A stretch of DNA of 64,000 nt from Bacteroidota bacterium (GTDB taxonomy: Bacteria; Bacteroidota; Bacteroidia; Bacteroidales; FEN-979). Shown here piece after piece: positions 1-63,573 of this stretch. The DNA lies in assembly GCA_037128705.1 (NCBI GenBank), contig JBAXVX010000007.1:27617-91616 (forward strand), read 5' to 3'. The notes beneath the pieces are model-generated. The model saw nothing but the letters and a program-made list of their open reading frames with translations, was not told the origin of the DNA and made no database searches. Position 1 is the stretch's first letter, and the number at the start of each line of letters is the position of its first letter. A program made the position numbers and the translations under genes.

Positions 1-19
1 GTGACGCGTGACACGTGAC
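1..19 (+). repeat. Heptamer tandem array (GTGACRC) x ~3, truncated by the window edge. An A-rich tract and solo ATCGT / GTAACAGGG units follow, up to ~49.
   Basis: Read directly: GTGACGC GTGACAC GTGACA, then AAAATAA ATCGTTC ATCAGTAACAGGGTAG. Same unit as the arrays at 3838-3880, 41116-41142 and 59606-59645. Confidence 0.7.
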
Positions 20-67
20 AAAAATAAATCGTTCATCAGTAACAGGGTAGTTTTTTCATAGATTTTT

Positions 68-1849
68 ATGCCGTCGGAAAGGAAAATATACTGGGCGCTG
101 ATCATCCTGCTGATTGTTTCGGCGGTGGTTCGTGGTTTTATTGCCGGCTTTATTGAATTGGGCAACGATGAGGTTTATTACTGGACCTATGCGAAATTTC
201 CCGCGCTCAGCCATTTCGACCATCCCCCCATGGTTGGCTTCGTGATCCAGTTCTTTACCCTGAACCTGTTCCTCGACAGTGAATTCTTCATACGGCTGGC
301 CTCCGTGGTACTGGGAACGCTGAGTACGGGAATGATGTTCCTGATCGGCCGGCAGATTAAAAGCCCGCTCACCGGGTTGTACGCCGCCCTTTTATTTACA
401 GCCTCCTTTTATGGATTCATCCTGAGCGGGATCTTTATTCTCCCCGATACCCCCCAGGTGTTTTTCTGGCTGGTCACGCTTTATTGCCTGATAAAATCAT
501 TGCCTGACCAGGATACAGCGCCGGAGAGCAGGAATTATCTCTTCTTCGCAGGGGTCACCGCCGGCCTGGCCCTTTTATCGAAATATCATTCGGTTTTCCT
601 GATTGCCGGGACCTTTATGTACCTTCTTTTATATAACCGGAGATGGTTCATGGCCAAGGAGACCTACGCCTTTTTCCTGATCATCATCATGCTGTTTCTT
701 CCTGTCATTTTCTGGAACATCGATAATGATTTTATCAGTTTTACCTTTCATGAAAAGAGGATCGGGATTTCCGAATCGGGGTTCCAGCCACTCTACTTTC
801 TCACCGAAGTCACGGGCCAGTTTTTTTATAATAACCCGGTGAATGTGGTAATCATCATTGGCTCGCTGATCGCGCTGATCCGAAGGAAACAGTTCATTGA
901 GGTCTCCTACAAGCGCATCCTGCTGTGGACCAGTGTCCCGCTCATCCTGGTGTTCCTCTCTTTTTCACTTTTCCGCAGCACCCTGCCACACTGGACCGGA
1001 CCGGGTTACCTGGGTCTCATCCTGATCGCAGCGGCCTGGCTGTCAGAACCAAAGATGAATGAATCAAAAATGCGCCTTGTTCCTTTACCGGTAGTCATAT
1101 CCCTGGCGTTCCTGATAACGGTAGCCGTAACCGGGGTCGGACAGATCCGTTTTGGCTGGATCCCGCTCCAGCGAATGAAAATCGATGATGTTTCTCTCGA
1201 CATGTATGGATGGAGGCAACTCGGTACGAAGTTCCAGGCAATGGTAAAATGGGATGAGGAGCACTTTCTTATCGACAAGGGATCGCCGATCATTACCTTC
1301 AGGTGGTTCCCCGCGGCCAATTTTGATTATTACCTGGCTCACAATGACCGTAATCCGGTATATGCCCTCGGGGAGATAGAGCGCATCCATAAGTACCATT
1401 GGATAGATCAGCTGCGCGGAAATCTCAAGAAGGGAAGCGACGCCTATTTTATCGCCCTGAGCGATGACTATGAAGATCCGGTGGCGTTATACGGCAACCT
1501 GTTCGATATGGTCCTTCCATCCGATACCCTGTTCATCACGCGGGGCCGCGACACAGTCCGCAAAGCATTTATTTTCAGGATGGTCGACCTGAAACAGGAC
1601 ATGGTCTTCGGCCGCGATAAATATGCAACCCCCAAAAAACAGGATACATCCGATACCCTTTCCTTTTTTCTTAACCAGATCAGGTCGGACCGCCAGTTTC
1701 TCGATGTCCTTGAAAGGAGATCGGTCAAACTGAAAATGCCCCTCGATGACCTGATCAGGGAAGAGGCTGCCAAGCTGTATGAAGAGTCAAAAGACAAGCT
1801 GGTTTTACCGGATACCCTTAAGGAAAAAGGTGACAAGGTGACAAGGTGA
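68..1849 (+). CDS. Polytopic membrane glycosyltransferase, ArnT/PMT-like (GT-C fold, GT39/GT83-like), with a soluble C-terminal domain
   Basis: 593-aa ORF with ATG start. The N-terminal ~2/3 has many hydrophobic helices and the family-typical N-terminal segment (ELGNDEVYYWTYAKFP..HFDHPPMVGF). The last codons (GDKVTR) and the TGA stop lie inside the GGTGACAR array. Confidence 0.75.
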   Translation: MPSERKIYWALIILLIVSAVVRGFIAGFIELGNDEVYYWTYAKFPALSHFDHPPMVGFVIQFFTLNLFLDSEFFIRLASVVLGTLSTGMMFLIGRQIKSPLTGLYAALLFTASFYGFILSGIFILPDTPQVFFWLVTLYCLIKSLPDQDTAPESRNYLFFAGVTAGLALLSKYHSVFLIAGTFMYLLLYNRRWFMAKETYAFFLIIIMLFLPVIFWNIDNDFISFTFHEKRIGISESGFQPLYFLTEVTGQFFYNNPVNVVIIIGSLIALIRRKQFIEVSYKRILLWTSVPLILVFLSFSLFRSTLPHWTGPGYLGLILIAAAWLSEPKMNESKMRLVPLPVVISLAFLITVAVTGVGQIRFGWIPLQRMKIDDVSLDMYGWRQLGTKFQAMVKWDEEHFLIDKGSPIITFRWFPAANFDYYLAHNDRNPVYALGEIERIHKYHWIDQLRGNLKKGSDAYFIALSDDYEDPVALYGNLFDMVLPSDTLFITRGRDTVRKAFIFRMVDLKQDMVFGRDKYATPKKQDTSDTLSFFLNQIRSDRQFLDVLERRSVKLKMPLDDLIREEAAKLYEESKDKLVLPDTLKEKGDKVTR

Positions 1850-1995
1850 CAGGGTGACAAGGTAACAGGGTGACAAAGTAATGGAGTAATGGAGTAATGG
1901 AGTAATGAAATCGAATATCGTAAATCGTAGATCGTAAATCGTATATCGTAAATTAATCAATCATTCGTCATTCGTCATTCGCCATTCGTCATTCA
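1829..1995. repeat. Composite tandem-repeat block of four arrays: (GGTRACAR)x6 at 1829-1876, (AGTAATGG)x4 at 1877-1908, (ATCGTAN)x~5-6 at 1909-1958, (TCATTCG)x~5 at 1959-1995
   Basis: Read directly and unit boundaries counted base by base. The block spans the whole gap between two convergent stop codons (TGA 1847-1849 on +, TGA 1993-1995 on -). Confidence 0.95.
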
Positions 1996-3390
1996 TTTGG
2001 GTCCTGTCATCTTTTTAGGATCAACGATGCGGGTGAATTCTTCATCGGTCAGCAAACCAAGTTCCAGGGTGGCTTCACGCAGGGTTTTATGCTCCTTGTG
2101 TGCTTTCTTGGCTATTTTGGCAGAATTGTCATAGCCGATGTGGGGATTGAGTGCCGTAACCAGCATCAGGGAATTTTCGAGATTTTTGTTGATGGCCGCC
2201 ATGTTCGGTTCGATGCCGATGGCGCAGTTGTCGTTGAATGAAACGCAGGCATCGCCGAGCAGCCTGGCCGACATCAGGAGGTTGGAGATGAGCAGGGGCT
2301 TGAAAACATTGAGCTGGAAATGGCCGCTGATACCGCCGATGTTGATGGCCACATCGTTGCCGAGTACCTGGGCGCATACCATGGTCATTGCTTCGGGTTG
2401 GGTGGGATTCACCTTGCCCGGCATGATGCTGGAGCCGGGTTCATTTTCGGGAAGCATGAGTTCGCCGATGCCGCAACGGGGACCGGAGGCCAGCAGGCGG
2501 ATGTTGGAGGCAATGTGCATCAGGCTTACCGCCAGCGTTTTCAGGGCGCCGGAGGTTTCAACCATCGCATCGTGAGCCGACAGCGATTCAAACTTATTGT
2601 CAGCGGTGATGAAGGGCAGCCCGGTGAGTTCGGCTATTTTTTTAGCCACCAGCACATCATAGCCTTTGGGTGCATTCAGCCCGGTGCCTACAGCTGTGCC
2701 GCCCAGCGCCAGTTCCGACAAATGGGGGAGGGTGTTTTTGAGTGCTTTCAGGCCGTGATCAAGCTGGGAGACATATCCTGAAAATTCCTGCCCCAGGGTG
2801 AGCGGGGTGGCATCCATGAGGTGGGTACGACCTGTTTTCACGATCTCCTTAAACTCTTCGGATTTTTTTGCCAGGGTGCCCTTCAGCAGATCCACACCCG
2901 GTATGGTATTGCCGGTAACCATCTTGTATGCGGCAATGCTCATGGCTGCGGGGAAGGTGTCGTTCGAAGACTGCGATTTGTTTACATCATCGTTGGGGTG
3001 GATCACCGTTTTGCCTTCGCCGCCCAGTTCACCGCCGTTCAGGACGTGGGCCCGGTTGGCGATCACCTCGTTGAGGTTCATGTTGGTTTGCGTTCCCGAA
3101 CCGGTTTGCCAGATCACCAGCGGGAACTGGTCATCCAGCTTGCCATCCAGGATCTCATCACAAACTTTCACAATCAGGGTCATCTTCTCTGAAGGCAACA
3201 CGCCAAGGTCGGCATTCACCATGGCTGCCGCCTTTTTTAGGATGGCCATTCCGCGGATCACCTCTTTGGGCATGGATCCTGGCTCACCAATTTTGAAGTT
3301 GGTTAGTGAACGCTGGGTTTGGGCTCCCCAGTACTTATCCATAGCAACCTCAATGGGCCCCATGGTGTCTTTTTCGATGCGTGTTTTCAT
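1993..3390 (-). CDS. fumC: Fumarate hydratase, class II
   Basis: 465 aa with ATG start. Carries the class II fumarase/aspartase signature [13 protein letters not shown] and matches the family over its full length. Confidence 0.95.
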
Positions 3391-3787: not shown

Positions 3788-3880
3788 ATTTACGATATAC
3801 GATTTACGATATACGATTTACGATATACGATTTTTTTCGTCACGTGTCACGCGTCACGTGTCACGCGTCACGCGTCACGC
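3788..3880 (-). repeat. Composite array read on the minus strand: (GTGACRC)x6 at 3838-3880, A7 at 3831-3837, (TCGTAWA)x6 at 3789-3830
   Basis: Read directly. It fills the 97-nt spacer between the prfB stop (3883-3885) and the ArsC-family start (3787). Confidence 0.95.
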
Positions 3881-3882
3881 TT

Positions 3883-4972
3883 TTATGCATTACCATATTC
3901 CATCAGGTAGGATTTGATAAACGCGGAGAGGTCGCCATCGAGCACAGCCTGGGTATCCGACGTTTCCTGTCCCGTGCGCAGATCCTTGACCATTTTATAG
4001 GGATGCAGCACATAACTGCGGATCTGGCTGCCCCACTCGATCTTTTTCTTCCCGCTCTCGATCACTGCGATCTTCTCACGCTGCTTTCGGAGTTCGATTT
4101 CATACAACTGCGATTTCAGCAGTTTCAGCGCTTTTTCGCGGTTTTGTCCCTGTGAGCGGGTCTCCTGGCATTCGATGATGATCCCCGAAGGTTCGTGTTT
4201 CAAGCGCACCGCGGTCTCCACCTTGTTTACATTTTGTCCGCCCGGACCGCTGCTGCGAAAGGTGTCCCAGCTGATCTCGGCCGGGTTGATGTCGATCACA
4301 ATGTCGTCGTTGATGATGGGATAGACATAGACTGACGCGAAGGAGGTATGCCGTTTGTGGTTGGAATCGAATGGGGAGAGCCGCACCAGCCGGTGCACGC
4401 CATTCTCGCCCTTGAGGTAGCCATAGGCATAGTCGCCGTCAAACTCCAGGGTCACCGATTTGATCCCCGCCACATCCCCCTCCTGGAAATCCACCTCGGC
4501 GATTTTGAAGCGGCTCCGCTCACCGTACCGGATATACATGCGCATGAGCATCTGAGCCCAATCCTGGCTTTCGGTGCCTCCCGCCCCGGAATTGATCTGG
4601 ACGATGGCGCCGAGCCGGTCTTCAACACCGCTCAGCATGTTGCGGAATTCCAACTCTTCTATAAGCGCCAGTGTTTCGTTGTAGTGATTTTCAAGCTCCT
4701 CTTCAGTTCCTTCACCCTGGATGTGGAATTCCCACATCACCATCAGGTCTTCCTGCGTTGAAAGCGCTTTTAAAAAGGCATCCGTCCAGAGTTTTTTATC
4801 ACGGATGGCACGCTGGGCTGTTTCCGCGGCTTTCGGATTATTCCAGAAATCGGGAGCCTGTGAAAGTTGTTCTTCTTCTGCTATCTGGGAAAGTTTCTTG
4901 TCGATGTCAAAGGTACCTCCTCAAGACGTCGAGCCTGGTCTTCAGGTCTCTCAGTTGGTCTTGTGCTATCAT
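3883..4972 (-). CDS. prfB: Peptide chain release factor 2, expressed through a programmed +1 frameshift
   Basis: Frame-1 leader ATG 4972 reads [21 protein letters not shown] then TGA (4907-4909). After a +1 shift it continues [25 protein letters not shown]... into the 3883..4743 ORF. SPF (RLSPFDS) and GGQ ([10 protein letters not shown]) motifs are present. Confidence 0.93.
4906..4921 (-). promoter_or_regulatory. RF2 autoregulatory +1 frameshift site: AGGAGG (SD-like), 3 nt, then CTT TGA C
   Basis: The minus strand reads TTG AGG AGG TAC CTT TGA C, which is the canonical RF2 recoding cassette. Confidence 0.9.
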
Positions 4973-5538: not shown

Positions 5539-5580
5539 GAAAAAAAGAAAATGCCCCCGTAGCACTTAGGTCACGGGGGC
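5539..5580 (-). terminator. Rho-independent terminator downstream of the YceI gene
   Basis: On the minus strand, GCCCCCGT (12-nt loop) ACGGGGGC is followed by ATTTTCTTTTTTT. A second 7-bp stem (AGCCTGT/ACAGGCT) lies just upstream at about 5604-5625. Confidence 0.75.
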
Positions 5581-5659
5581 AAAGTCATTTAGCTACGGAT
5601 GCGCAGCCTGTTAACGGGGACAGGCTCTTGTATCAGAGGGGCTGCCAGGCGGTATGCTA

Positions 5660-11974: not shown

Positions 11975-13108
11975 ATGAAAAAATATTTGTTCATCCTGTT
12001 AGTAGGGGCAATCCTCGCTTCATGTACAGGAAATAAGGATCAGTTTACCATCAAGGGAAAGGTCAACGGCGTTGATACAGGAATGATCTACCTGCAAAAA
12101 TTCGATGTTGACCAATGGGTCAAAGTCGATTCATCAAAACTTGAAAAAGGAGCATTTTCATTCAAAGGATCCGCTGCTCTTCCGGAGATGTGGCACATCG
12201 TCATGGATGAAAAGCAAATCATACTTCCCGTGTTTGTTGAAAATGCCGGAATCAAGGTAGAGATCTATGTTGACAGCCTTGATAAATCGTTGATCACAGG
12301 ATCTCCCTCCCATGATATTTACCAGAAGTATCTCACCCTGAATGAGTCCGTGTATAAAAAGATGGATGAGAACACCATGGAGTGGAAGAAAGCCAGAGAT
12401 GCCAATGATTCGGCAACCATGAAACGCACCGATTCGGTTTCGAATGAGCTGGATAAGGAGATGAAAAAGCAGCTCCAGGATTTTGCCAGGGCCAACAACA
12501 AGACTGTTGTTTCTCCCTACCTGGTTATACGCAATAGCTGGCAATTTGAGCTCCCCGACCTGGAAGAACTACTTGCCGCCATGGATACCAGTCTGAATGG
12601 TTCCCAATATGTGCTGGCTCTGAAGAAACGCATTGAAATCCTGAAGCGTGTTGAAATTGGGCAGATGGCTCCTGATTTTACCTTGAATGATACCACCGGG
12701 GCCCCTGTTGCGCTGTCATCCCTGAAAGGGAGGGTGCTGCTGGTTGATTTCTGGGCATCGTGGTGCAGTCCCTGCCGGGCTGAGAATCCCAACGTGGTGA
12801 AGGCTTACCAGGCTTATCACAAGAAGGGATTTGATGTGCTGGGCTGTTCGTTCGACCAGAACCGGGAAAAATGGCTGAAAGCTTTAAGGAATGATAAACT
12901 TACCTGGACCCATGTTTCAGACCTGAAGGGATGGGGCAATGCTGCAGGCAAACTTTATGGCATCAATTCCATCCCGGCAAATGTCCTGCTCGACAAGGAT
13001 CAGAAGATCATCGGCCGTAACCTTCGCGGTGCGGATCTGATGAAGAAGCTGGAAGAGATTTTCGGACCGGCGGTTCCTGAGAAAAAGGGAAAAAAGGCAA
13101 CCAGGTAA
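11975..13108 (+). CDS. TlpA-family thiol:disulfide oxidoreductase lipoprotein (DUF4369 N-domain + thioredoxin fold)
   Basis: 377 aa. Has a lipobox (ILASC) and the redox motif WASWCSPC. The stop TAA lies in the first GGTAACAG unit. Confidence 0.88.
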   Translation: MKKYLFILLVGAILASCTGNKDQFTIKGKVNGVDTGMIYLQKFDVDQWVKVDSSKLEKGAFSFKGSAALPEMWHIVMDEKQIILPVFVENAGIKVEIYVDSLDKSLITGSPSHDIYQKYLTLNESVYKKMDENTMEWKKARDANDSATMKRTDSVSNELDKEMKKQLQDFARANNKTVVSPYLVIRNSWQFELPDLEELLAAMDTSLNGSQYVLALKKRIEILKRVEIGQMAPDFTLNDTTGAPVALSSLKGRVLLVDFWASWCSPCRAENPNVVKAYQAYHKKGFDVLGCSFDQNREKWLKALRNDKLTWTHVSDLKGWGNAAGKLYGINSIPANVLLDKDQKIIGRNLRGADLMKKLEEIFGPAVPEKKGKKATR

Positions 13109-13156
13109 CAGGGTAACAGGGTAACAGGGTAACAGGGTAACAGGGTAACAGGGTGA
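13104..13156 (+). repeat. Octamer tandem array (GGTAACAG)x6 + GGTGA
   Basis: Read directly, with units counted 13104-13151. It contains the upstream stop (13106-13108) and runs into the downstream GTG/ATG start (13153/13156). Confidence 0.95.
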
Positions 13157-37955: not shown

Positions 37956-38040
37956 TCATATCCAATAAACATGCCGTGTTTGTAAATGCATGATAATCAT
38001 TTACATGCAAAAAGAACAAATCAGAATGCCATGGATTTAC

Positions 38041-38077
38041 ATTACGGAATCGGAAGATTGCCTTCCGATTCCGTAAT
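38041..38077 (-). other. Perfect 16-bp stem / 5-nt loop hairpin (ATTACGGAATCGGAAG attgc CTTCCGATTCCGTAAT)
   Basis: Verified base by base. It begins 6 nt downstream of the EBP stop codon. Neither strand has a U-tract. Confidence 0.9.
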
Positions 38078-38082
38078 GTCTG

Positions 38083-41107: not shown

Positions 41108-41142
41108 CGAATCGCGTGACACGTGACGCGTGACGCGTGACC
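41108..41142 (+). repeat. Solo CGAATCG unit + heptamer array (GTGACRC)x4 (41116-41142)
   Basis: Read directly. It begins immediately after the sufB TGA (41105-41107). Confidence 0.9.
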
Positions 41143-52888: not shown

Positions 52889-52935
52889 GTCACGCGTCAC
52901 GCTTTTCCGTCACGCGTCACGCTTCATGTGTCACG
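52889..52935 (-). repeat. Interrupted heptamer array: plus strand reads (GTCACGC)x2 ttttcc (GTCACGC)x2 ttcatgt GTCACG, then T7
   Basis: Read directly. This is the reverse orientation of the GTGACRC family. The 16-nt super-unit GTCACGCGTCACGCTT occurs twice, 20 nt apart. Confidence 0.9.
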
Positions 52936-52943
52936 TTTTTTTA

Positions 52944-59600: not shown

Positions 59601-59616
<16 letters not shown>

Positions 59617-59685
59617 CAAAAAAATCGTGACACGTGACGCGTGACAAAAAATATTGTAAATCGTAAATCATACATCGTAAATTTT
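59601..59685 (+). repeat. Composite array: [ATC (GTGACRC)1-2 GTGAC A6-7] x2 (59603-59651) followed by (ATYGTAA)-type units x4 (59653-59681)
   Basis: Read directly. It contains the permease stop (59614-59616) and ends 12 nt before the tauE-family ATG. Confidence 0.92.
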
Positions 59686-63524: not shown

Positions 63525-63573
63525 TAATTCGTCATTCGCAATTCATCATTTGTCATTCGTCATTCGTCATTCC
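63525..63573 (-). repeat. Heptamer tandem array (TCATTCG)x7 on plus, which reads (CGAATGA)x7 on the gene-sense minus strand
   Basis: Read directly, with units counted. It begins 1 nt after the LOG-family stop (63575-63577), and 10 nt separate it from the kinase ATG (63514). Confidence 0.92.

What the first reader, a model, noticed from the sequence alone, without database searches (positions are those of the whole stretch)
1829..1995. A convergent-gene gap built entirely from four back-to-back repeat families, with both stop codons supplied by repeat units
Every base between the glycosyltransferase stop (TGA 1847-1849) and the fumC stop (TGA on minus, 1993-1995) belongs to a tandem unit. The order is (GGTRACAR)x6, (AGTAATGG)x4, (ATCGTAN)x~5-6 and (TCATTCG)x~5, with short hybrid transition units (AATCGAAT, ATTAATC, AATCATTCG). 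The last six codons of the glycosyltransferase (GDKVTR) are repeat-encoded. The three families nearest that + strand gene carry stops on +. The family nearest fumC carries stops on -. There is no hairpin terminator between two convergent, presumably well-expressed genes.
Basis: seen in the sequence. Interest (0 to 1): 0.75.

Follow-up and report, generated by a model that had tools for sequence, protein, structure and literature searches.

The report
Variable short tandem repeats between genes
The gap between these two genes really is built from four runs of 7-8-base tandem repeats, but it is one example of fast-changing repeat arrays that fill many gene gaps in this group of uncultured Bacteroidota, a known kind of bacterial repeat whose function is still unknown.

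Summary
Positions 1829-1995 parse into (GGTRACAR)x6, (AGTAATGG)x4, (ATCGTAN)x5 and (TCATTCG)x5. The glycosyltransferase's last six codons and its stop are repeat-encoded. No significant hairpin is predicted.

The gap is not a one-off. Nine such arrays lie in the 64 kb window, against none expected by chance, and they use the same unit families.

Strains with identical fumC differ by whole units. Relatives with 85-94% fumC nucleotide identity keep the same module order, with different units and copy numbers, and the glycosyltransferase tail changes among close relatives. In three within-species comparisons, every indel longer than one base inside the aligned region lies in an array and is a multiple of seven.

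The fumC stop is the ancestral stop and sits at the edge of its array. Two "hybrid" stretches are a deletion scar and a conserved spacer.

Best explanation: slippage-driven 7-8-base tandem arrays, tolerated at gene 3' ends. Arrays that touch a gene end survive only in the orientation that places stop codons in all three frames. That filter would produce the face-to-face layout seen here.

This is a new member of a known kind (long simple sequence repeats, cyanobacterial heptamer arrays, TAACTGA repeats). A role in termination through Rho is possible but untested.

The parts
68..1849 (+). Family 39 glycosyltransferase (PMT_2), 593 aa. Its last six codons and its stop lie in the first octamer array.
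   Evidence: ORF; Pfam families listed for the gene calls; source name; tail variants.
1829..1876 (+). (GGTRACAR)x6 octamer array. It holds a TGA in each of the three frames (1831, 1839, 1847). The TGA at 1847-1849 is the glycosyltransferase stop.
   Evidence: The sister species L120 codes single-copy GGAGACAA (QGDN) at the aligned position.
1877..1908 (+). (AGTAATGG)x4 octamer array; the last unit is AGTAATGA.
   Evidence: Present in L134-136, reduced in L132, absent in L120.
1909..1916 (.). AATCGAAT, a junction scar. Relatives have AGTGAAAT-CGTGACG-CGTGACA-AAAAA-TCGTAAA at this point.
1917..1951 (+). (ATCGTAN)x5 heptamer array, the TCGTAWA family.
   Evidence: The same family occurs at 3788-3833 and 59656-59682.
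1952..1960 (.). ATTAATCAA, a conserved non-repeat spacer (TTMMTCAA) at the point where array orientation switches.
   Evidence: The same spacer is present in L120, L132 and L134-136.
1961..1995 (-). (CGAATGA)x5 on the minus strand (TCATTCG on plus). Its last unit contains the native fumC stop, TGA at 1993-1995.
   Evidence: There are 8 units in L004. The unit is AATGACC in L120/L121 and CCAATGA in L132.
1993..3390 (-). Class II fumarate hydratase (fumC), 465 aa.
1..20 (+). Same system: (GTGACRC)x2.9, cut by the window edge, followed by A5 and TAAATCGT. Lies between the Nramp gene and the glycosyltransferase.
3788..3880 (-). Same system: (GTGACRC)x6-A7-(TCGTAWA)x6, filling the prfB-arsC gap and ending one base (a T) before the arsC ATG.
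13104..13154 (+). Same system: (GGTAACAG)x6.4, filling a 47-nt gap. It supplies the TAA stop of the upstream gene.
41113..41141 (+). Same system: (CGTGACR)x4 between sufB and sufC.
52889..52935 (-). Same system: GTCACGC units on the plus strand, followed by T7. This is the only array in the window that is antisense to both neighbouring genes.
59626..59682 (+). Same system: (CGTGACR)x3-A6-(TCGTAAA)x4. The upstream gene's TGA lies in a GCGTGAC unit.
63527..63572 (-). Same system: (GACGAAT)x6.6 on the minus strand, starting 2 nt after the stop of the upstream gene.

Best explanation
The gap is a compound locus of hypervariable 7- and 8-base tandem arrays. These are bacterial long simple sequence repeats, comparable to the cyanobacterial heptamer arrays.

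Inferred: the arrays grow, shrink and change unit sequence by replication slippage or unequal exchange. Selection tolerates them where they damage neither a coding region nor a promoter.

Inferred: a unit length that is not a multiple of three gives a stop in every frame whenever the unit contains TGA or TAA. An array that touches or invades a gene's 3' end is therefore harmless only in the orientation that carries stops on that gene's sense strand. Between two convergent genes this filter produces stop-bearing arrays facing each other, as seen here.

Shown: the arrays themselves, the whole-unit copy-number differences between strains, the turnover of units between species, the repeat-encoded and variable glycosyltransferase tail, and the face-to-face rule.

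Inferred: slippage as the molecular cause, the selective filter, and the absence of a dedicated function.
For: (1) The arrays are genome-wide. Nine strong arrays lie in 64 kb against 0 expected. They make up 491 of 3640 intergenic nt and none is internal to a gene.

(2) They change in whole units. In five assemblies of this species over 13.4 kb there are 35 SNP columns, and the only indel longer than one base is +21 nt (3 units) in the fumC-proximal array. In two related species every indel inside the aligned region lies in an array: 14 nt in one, and 7-49 nt plus 7 nt in the other. (ATGTACG)n runs from 8.7 to 15.7 copies among strains with identical fumC.

(3) The junction keeps its module order, [GGTRACAR]-[AGTAATGG]-[CGTGACR-A5]-[TCGTAWA]-spacer-[TCAYTSG], in lineages with 94, 92 and 85% fumC nucleotide identity. 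Copy numbers and unit sequences differ between lineages and are homogenised within each array. More distant relatives have a single array or none.

(4) Among glycosyltransferases of at least 90% identity the tail reads KGDKVTR*, KVTR*, GNRVIR*, GNKVTR* or K*. It is always short.

(5) Arrays lie inside probable operons (sufB-sufC, prfB-arsC), so they are not obligatory terminators.

(6) Octamer arrays in metagenomes show no overall orientation preference towards an incoming gene (51 sense, 54 antisense). When the gene's stop lies at or inside the array, the array is sense in 29 cases and antisense in 2. Opposed pairs are always arranged stop-bearing arm first, 14 to 0. In convergent gaps of Bacteroidales loci, 14 of 15 arrays are sense to the nearer gene.

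(7) The four families in this gap have no significant fold.
Against: Purely local slippage does not explain why the same few unit families recur. GTGACRC, GGTRACAR, TCGTAWA and AATGACS appear at many loci, and the composite GTGACRC-A5-7-TCGTAWA appears at three loci in this window. CGTGACR and GGTGACAR arrays also occur in distant phyla.

The module order has persisted down to 85% fumC nucleotide identity, which could reflect selection.

The 29-to-2 result is partly built in, because any ORF that enters a sense array must stop there.

Orientation in tandem gaps is mixed (17 sense, 12 antisense), so the filter explains only arrays that touch a gene end.

No transcript data were available.
Confidence: 0.6

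Rival explanations
1. The arrays form a hairpin-free, two-way terminator that works through Rho. Each mRNA first crosses its own G-rich array, whose stops in all frames strip off ribosomes. It then runs into the partner gene's arrays in antisense. That RNA is C-rich, G-poor and unstructured, so Rho can load on it.
For: Read on the minus strand, as the continuation of the fumC mRNA, 1829-1908 is 38% C and 7% G. It ranks in the top 0.03% of all 80-nt windows for C-over-G excess. There is no hairpin or U-tract. Opposed arrays always have the G-rich arm first.
Against: For the glycosyltransferase mRNA the C-rich stretch is only about 39 nt, and its C-over-G excess is unremarkable (16th percentile). 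In tandem gaps of Bacteroidales loci the G-rich and C-rich orientations are about equal, roughly 14 to 13 by my count. That is not expected if the C-rich orientation caused Rho polarity. Arrays come and go between close relatives. The RNA preference of Bacteroidota Rho is not known to me.
Confidence: 0.15
2. The arrays are landing pads for a protein that reads single-stranded RNA or DNA in steps of about 7 nt, such as a cold-shock-domain protein, ribosomal protein S1 or an unknown regulator. Binding would tune mRNA stability or the translation of neighbouring genes.
For: A few specific units recur across loci, species and phyla. TCGTAWA arrays end next to the arsC start codon in several lineages. 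This role has been proposed for TAACTGA repeats and for Nostoc heptamers (PMC4679880; bioRxiv 10.1101/2022.06.06.494920). In low-GC genomes assembled from metagenomes, the CGTGACG array has a fixed length of four units.
Against: Copy number is free to vary between strains. Units drift between sister species. The sister species lacks the array in the prfB-arsC gap altogether. This gap contains no start codon. No candidate protein was identified.
Confidence: 0.12
3. The composite, for example GTGACRC-A5-7-TCGTAWA, is a small mobile or recombination-spread cassette that inserts after stop codons and then expands.
For: The same composite occurs at three loci in the window and in the junction of relatives. 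The prfB-arsC site is 'filled' here and 'empty' (TGAAATCGTAAATATG) in L120. The distribution across phyla is patchy.
Against: There are no terminal inverted repeats and no consistent target duplication. No transposase, integrase or reverse-transcriptase gene was noticed in the limited gene calls available, but the window was not screened for one. The empty site is explained equally well by deletion between the flanking AAATCG repeats. CGTGACR arrays gave no hits in 2.9 million viral contigs. At orthologous sites heptamers and octamers replace each other gradually.
Confidence: 0.08
4. The region is an assembly artefact: short-read assemblers stitched or collapsed low-complexity reads.
For: Contigs L004, L005, L006 and L133 end inside these arrays.
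Against: Three independent assemblies from different samples give a junction identical to the window's. The gap is 143 nt, which should be within typical short-read or read-pair length (my assumption; read lengths were not checked). Related lineages carry homologous composites.
Confidence: 0.02

Closest known systems
Long simple sequence repeats with 5-11-nt units (Mrazek et al. 2007, as summarised in PMC4679880)
   Same: Tandem units that are mostly heptamers. Units that are not multiples of three are kept out of coding DNA. The distribution across phyla is sporadic. Slippage is the proposed cause.
   Different: Here several unit families are concatenated into one inherited composite, and arrays touch or supply stop codons. 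This clade was not part of that survey, as far as I could check.
Cyanobacterial short tandemly repeated repetitive (STRR) heptamers (from my own knowledge, Mazel et al. 1990; related heptamer repeats in Nostoc in bioRxiv 10.1101/2022.06.06.494920)
   Same: Many intergenic heptamer arrays of a few families, dispersed through the genome. Function unknown.
   Different: Different phylum and unit sequences. No tandem CCCCAGT, TTGGTCA or CAACAGT occurs in the window. Octamers occur here as well.
TAACTGA direct repeats of Beggiatoaceae, Cyanobacteria and five Bacteroidetes (PMC4679880)
   Same: An intergenic heptamer with TAA and TGA in the unit. Indels between strains come in steps of 7 nt. Arrays are mixed with other heptamers in Bacteroidetes. 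Contigs break inside the repeats.
   Different: Those repeats sit mostly just upstream of start codons, with 2-6 copies. The unit is absent as a tandem repeat here. The gap studied here lies between two 3' ends.
Geobacter metallireducens multicopy elements made of four tandem hepta- or octanucleotide repeats, often paired on opposite strands (PMC2700814)
   Same: Octamer and heptamer arrays on opposite strands, facing each other in intergenic DNA.
   Different: Those have a fixed copy number of four or five and were read as regulator binding sites. The arrays here vary freely in copy number.
Rho-dependent terminators (rut sites)
   Same: Untranslated, unstructured, C-rich and G-poor RNA downstream of a stop codon, for the fumC transcript only.
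   Different: There is no evidence of Rho action, and the composition is a by-product of the repeat units.

Membership tests
Long simple sequence repeats / variable-number tandem repeats of bacteria | Head-to-tail copies of a 5-11-nt unit, longer than chance allows | tested here: met
   TRF scores of 61-79 in the gap. Nine arrays with score >=50 in the window against 0.0 in 100 simulations.
Long simple sequence repeats / variable-number tandem repeats of bacteria | Copy number differs between strains by whole units | tested here: met
   +21 nt in L004, 14 nt between L120 and L121, 14 nt between L134 and L135, and 7-49 nt among L127-131.
Long simple sequence repeats / variable-number tandem repeats of bacteria | Units that are not multiples of three are excluded from coding DNA | tested here: met
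   All window arrays are intergenic. They overlap only the last codons of a gene.
Cyanobacterial STRR | Canonical units CCCCAGT, TTGGTCA or CAACAGT in tandem | tested here: not met
   No tandem copies on either strand.
Cyanobacterial STRR | Host is a cyanobacterium | tested here: not met
   Sources name the proteins as Bacteroidota or Bacteroidales genomes assembled from metagenomes.
TAACTGA direct repeats | Unit TAACTGA repeated in tandem | tested here: not met
   Seven single copies and no tandem copies.
Intrinsic hairpin terminator (one-way or two-way) | Stable stem-loop followed by a U-tract | tested here: not met
   No site found by the scan. z = -0.65 and -0.42. The best 45-nt hairpins are -3.6 and -2.1 kcal/mol.
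Rho-dependent terminator | About 80 nt of C-rich, G-poor, unstructured RNA after the stop codon | tested here: inconclusive
   Met for the fumC transcript (C 38%, G 7%, top 0.03% of windows). Weak for the glycosyltransferase transcript.
Rho-dependent terminator | Transcript ends depend on Rho | not testable with these tools
   No transcript data.
REP/BIME or miniature transposable elements | Palindromic unit or terminal inverted repeats with a target duplication | tested here: not met
   The four families do not fold, and none of these features is seen at the three composite loci.
Phase-variable contingency locus | Repeat length switches a gene on and off, through reading frame or promoter spacing | tested here: not met
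   Only the last 1-7 residues of the glycosyltransferase change, and all variants stop within the array. No promoter lies in the gap.
CRISPR array | Repeats of 24-48 nt separated by unique spacers | tested here: not met
   Units of 7-8 nt with no spacers.
Known RNA families (Rfam 15) | A match at the family's gathering score | tested here: not met
   No matches in the whole window.

The most novel reading that the evidence does not exclude
Stop-anchored arrays that face each other are a selected, widespread way of separating convergent genes without a classical terminator. Each gene's own array closes all reading frames. The partner's array, read in antisense, is a C-rich loading site for Rho. 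Where both arms use the same unit, the pair also forms a long hairpin. The rule that the stop-bearing arm always comes first (14 of 14 octamer pairs, in contigs of 44-73% GC) would then reflect function, not just a tolerance filter.
Probability: 0.15. Interest if true: 0.7.

Novelty: new member of a known kind. Interest (0 to 1): 0.4.

Why it matters
The origin and role of bacterial heptamer arrays have been open questions since they were first seen in cyanobacteria.

This clade offers a dense natural series. Homologous composite loci can be followed across strains and species, so gain, loss and drift of units can be read directly.

It also gives a simple, testable rule: arrays that touch a gene end carry stops in all frames on that gene's strand.

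There are practical consequences. These arrays break short-read contigs. They change annotated C-termini between strains. They create false ORFs on their stop-free strand.

Tried and rejected
- Rfam search of the whole window: no matches.
- Terminator scan and folding of the gap on both strands: nothing significant. The minimum-energy fold pairs AGUAAUGG with UCAUUCG units, but z is only -0.4.
- Do 3' ends with arrays lack hairpins compared with those without? The median best hairpin is -5.0 against -11.4 kcal/mol, but p = 0.19, and GTGACRC arrays themselves fold.
- Arrays only at 3' ends? 7 of 22 gaps containing a 3' end have arrays against 0 of 7 divergent gaps. This is not significant, and a relative has arrays in a divergent gap.
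- A general sense-strand orientation rule is rejected. Tandem gaps give 17 to 12 and 11 to 10. Overall the split is 51 to 54.
- Spread by phages: no viral contigs carry CGTGACR arrays, and only 8 carry octamer arrays.
- Literature search for the unit sequences: no relevant paper in the library.
- The idea that the four-unit CGTGACG cassette of low-GC metagenome-assembled genomes always sits upstream of a ribosome-binding site: only 20 of 69 fit.
- The mobile-cassette reading could be neither confirmed nor excluded.
Full report
WHAT IS THERE. The window encodes a family 39 glycosyltransferase on the plus strand (68-1849, 593 aa). It encodes a class II fumarase, fumC, on the minus strand (1993-3390). 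Tandem Repeats Finder reports four adjoining arrays between them: (AAGGTGAC)x6.2 at 1827-1876, (AGTAATGG)x3.9 at 1877-1907, (AAATCGT)x6.6 at 1908-1953 and (TCATTCG)x4.9 at 1961-1994.

The glycosyltransferase ends GGT GAC AAG GTG ACA AGG TGA. Its last six residues and its stop are therefore repeat-encoded, and all three plus-strand frames are closed by position 1849. Stops are strongly one-sided. In 1850-1953 there are 12 on the plus strand and none on the minus strand. In 1954-1992 there are one and five. No terminator-like site is found. Neither strand folds better than shuffled sequence, with z = -0.65 and -0.42. Rfam finds nothing in the window.

NOT A ONE-OFF. The window has nine period-7/8 arrays with TRF score of 50 or more, against none in 100 simulated windows. 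They use the same few unit families:
- GTGACRC at 1-20, 3838-3880, 41113-41141, 52889-52935 and 59626-59646
- GGTAACAG at 13104-13154
- TCGTAWA at 3788-3833 and 59656-59682
- GACGAAT at 63527-63572

Arrays take up 491 of about 3640 intergenic bases, and none lies inside a gene. The composite GTGACRC - A5-7 - TCGTAWA recurs at three places. Several arrays start at or contain the upstream gene's stop codon: 13106-13108, 59614-59616 and 1847-1849.

Two arrays lie inside probable operons. One sits between sufB and sufC. The other fills the prfB-arsC gap and ends one base before the arsC start codon. Arrays are therefore not obligatory terminators.

STRAINS AND RELATIVES. An exact look-up of fumC found six contigs from metagenome assemblies. 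Three carry a junction identical to the window's, so the sequence is not an assembly artefact. One, L004, has eight instead of five fumC-proximal units. Three contigs end inside the arrays.

Over 13.4 kb these assemblies differ at 35 SNP columns. Their only indel longer than one base is that 21-nt array change. In two related species, every indel inside the aligned region also lies in an array and is a multiple of seven. In one of them an (ATGTACG) array ranges from 8.7 to 15.7 copies among strains with identical fumC.

Lineages with 94%, 92% and 85% fumC nucleotide identity (L134-136, L132, L120) keep the same convergent junction. They also keep the same order of modules:

[GGTRACAR]n - [AGTAATGG]n - [CGTGACR]2-5 - A5-6 - [TCGTAWA]n - TTMMTCAA - [TCAYTSG]n

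Copy numbers and unit spellings differ between lineages. They are uniform within each array, for example AATGACG here and AATGACC in L120.

AATCGAAT at 1909-1916 is what remains after loss of the CGTGACR-A5 module. ATTAATCAA at 1952-1960 is a conserved spacer at the point where orientation switches. More distant relatives have a single (AGTGACA)x8.6 array (L126) or no array and a different neighbouring gene (L122, L125, L127).

THE TWO STOP CODONS. Glycosyltransferases of at least 90% identity end ...LKEKGDKVTR...LKEKVTR...LKEGNRVIR...LKEGNKVTR or ...LKEK. In every lineage inspected at the DNA level the stop lies in the array. The sister species L120 ends ...QGDNYRDT. At the position aligned with this window's GGTGACAA units it codes a single GGAGACAA, which may be the seed of the array.

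The fumC stop is different. All relatives end GPK followed by a stop at the same codon, including relatives with no array. It is therefore the ancestral stop. The unit AATGACS looks as if it grew out of the AAATGA context, but that is my inference.

ORIENTATION. In convergent gaps of Bacteroidales loci, 14 of 15 arrays with one-sided stops are sense to the nearer gene. In tandem gaps there is no clear rule: 17 sense against 12 antisense.

I then scanned metagenomes for the octamer family, which returned 120 loci from contigs of 32-73% GC. Genes running towards an array meet sense and antisense arrays equally often, 51 against 54. When the stop codon lies at or inside the array, the array is sense in 29 cases and antisense in 2. 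When two opposed arrays share a gap, the stop-bearing arm always comes first, 14 to 0. Part of the 29-to-2 result is unavoidable, because an ORF that enters a sense array must end there.

The pattern fits a filter. Arrays may sit in either orientation, but only the stop-bearing orientation can touch or invade a gene end without adding a long tail to the protein.

OTHER PROPERTIES. CGTGACG is a six-of-seven palindrome. GTGACRC arrays fold well, at -15 to -23 kcal/mol with z of -2 to -3.5. The four families of this gap do not, with z of about 0 to -0.4. This may help explain why that heptamer expands in many phyla, but that is conjecture.

Read as the continuation of the fumC mRNA, 1829-1908 is 38% C and 7% G, in the top 0.03% of 80-nt windows for C-over-G excess. 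That composition resembles a Rho loading site. The equivalent stretch for the glycosyltransferase mRNA is short and unremarkable.

MOST LIKELY MECHANISM. I commit, at about 0.6, to slippage-driven variable arrays that persist where tolerated, shaped at gene ends by the all-frame-stop filter and with no dedicated function.

Shown: the arrays, whole-unit polymorphism, unit turnover, tail variation, and the face-to-face rule. Inferred: slippage as the cause, the filter, and neutrality.

The main weakness is the recurrence of the same units and composites across loci, species and phyla. Local slippage alone does not predict this. It keeps three rivals alive: a Rho-dependent two-way terminator (0.15), a platform for a protein that reads in 7-nt steps (0.12), and a cassette spread by recombination or transposition (0.08).

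COMPARISON WITH WHAT IS KNOWN. The locus meets the defining features of bacterial long simple sequence repeats, in which heptamers predominate (Mrazek et al. 2007, as summarised in PMC4679880). It behaves like the cyanobacterial heptamer arrays and the TAACTGA repeats. The TAACTGA study already noted mixed heptamer assemblages in Bacteroidetes, 7-nt indels between strains and contigs that end in repeats.

It is not a member of either family by unit sequence. Geobacter metallireducens has octamer and heptamer arrays paired on opposite strands, but with fixed copy number (PMC2700814). Experimental work on Nostoc heptamers points to regulatory effects without a defined mechanism. I found no paper containing these unit sequences in the searchable library.

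VERDICT. This is a real and well-described feature. It is a new member of a known kind, not a new kind. Interest is moderate, 0.4. The general question of what such arrays do is old and open, and this clade gives a clear comparative series and a testable orientation rule. The organisms are uncultured, however, and nothing found here requires a new mechanism.

Noticed in passing
L007, L014, L015, L022, L030, L039, L045, L065 and other loci: In low-GC genomes assembled from metagenomes (36-40% GC, labelled Vulcanimicrobiota and Synergistia), the CGTRAYG array is not variable. 70 of 114 arrays are exactly four units (28 nt). They often sit in a recurring context such as ...TTAAT-AT-(CGTGACG)4-CGAGGA... 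Only 20 of 69 have a ribosome-binding-site-like motif nearby on the other strand. This may be a dispersed regulatory or mobile element.
   Followed up: partly
L145-L264 (metagenome contigs): GGTGACAR octamer arrays are widespread in contigs of 32-73% GC. Fourteen gaps hold two opposed arrays, always stop-bearing arm first. Same-unit pairs such as L163 and L170 would form long hairpins between apparently convergent ORFs.
   Followed up: partly
L137-L144 (viral contigs): Eight phage contigs, mostly high-GC (46-67% GC), carry GGTGACAR arrays. Some run between a stop codon and the next ribosome-binding site and start codon, for example L144 and L140. AAGGTGA resembles an extended ribosome-binding site.
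   Followed up: no
window 4906-4922, minus strand: The classic programmed +1 frameshift site of release factor 2 (prfB): GAGGAGG TAC CTT TGA C. This explains why the long prfB ORF (3883-4743) looks truncated at its 5' end.
   Followed up: partly
window about 5550-5590 (minus) and about 38040-38080 (minus): Conventional strong hairpins downstream of genes, at -19.3 and -29.8 kcal/mol, the first followed by a T-run. This genome therefore also has ordinary terminator-like structures.
   Followed up: no
window 52889-52942: The one array that is antisense to its neighbouring genes. On the plus strand it reads (GTCACGC)n followed by T7, directly upstream of a Bacteroidota-type promoter box (TACCTTTG). 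It folds with z = -1.95 on plus and -3.5 on minus, so it may act as a hairpin-plus-U terminator.
   Followed up: partly
L127-L131, 540-960 and 4390-4980: A related species has (ATCGTAC)x12-21 and (ATAGCAG)x6-8 in a divergent gap. Its arsC-fumC gap is filled by three or four back-to-back families. Gene callers merged the arrays into an ORF in some assemblies.
   Followed up: partly
window 1620-1849, and L120, L127: The glycosyltransferase carries a C-terminal extension of about 75 residues (DKYATPKK...LVLPDT). It is shared with L120 and L127 and absent from L122, L125 and L126.
   Followed up: no
window 1805-1960, minus strand: The stop-free strand of the arrays produces a spurious 51-codon ORF. 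Such arrays will create false gene calls.
   Followed up: no
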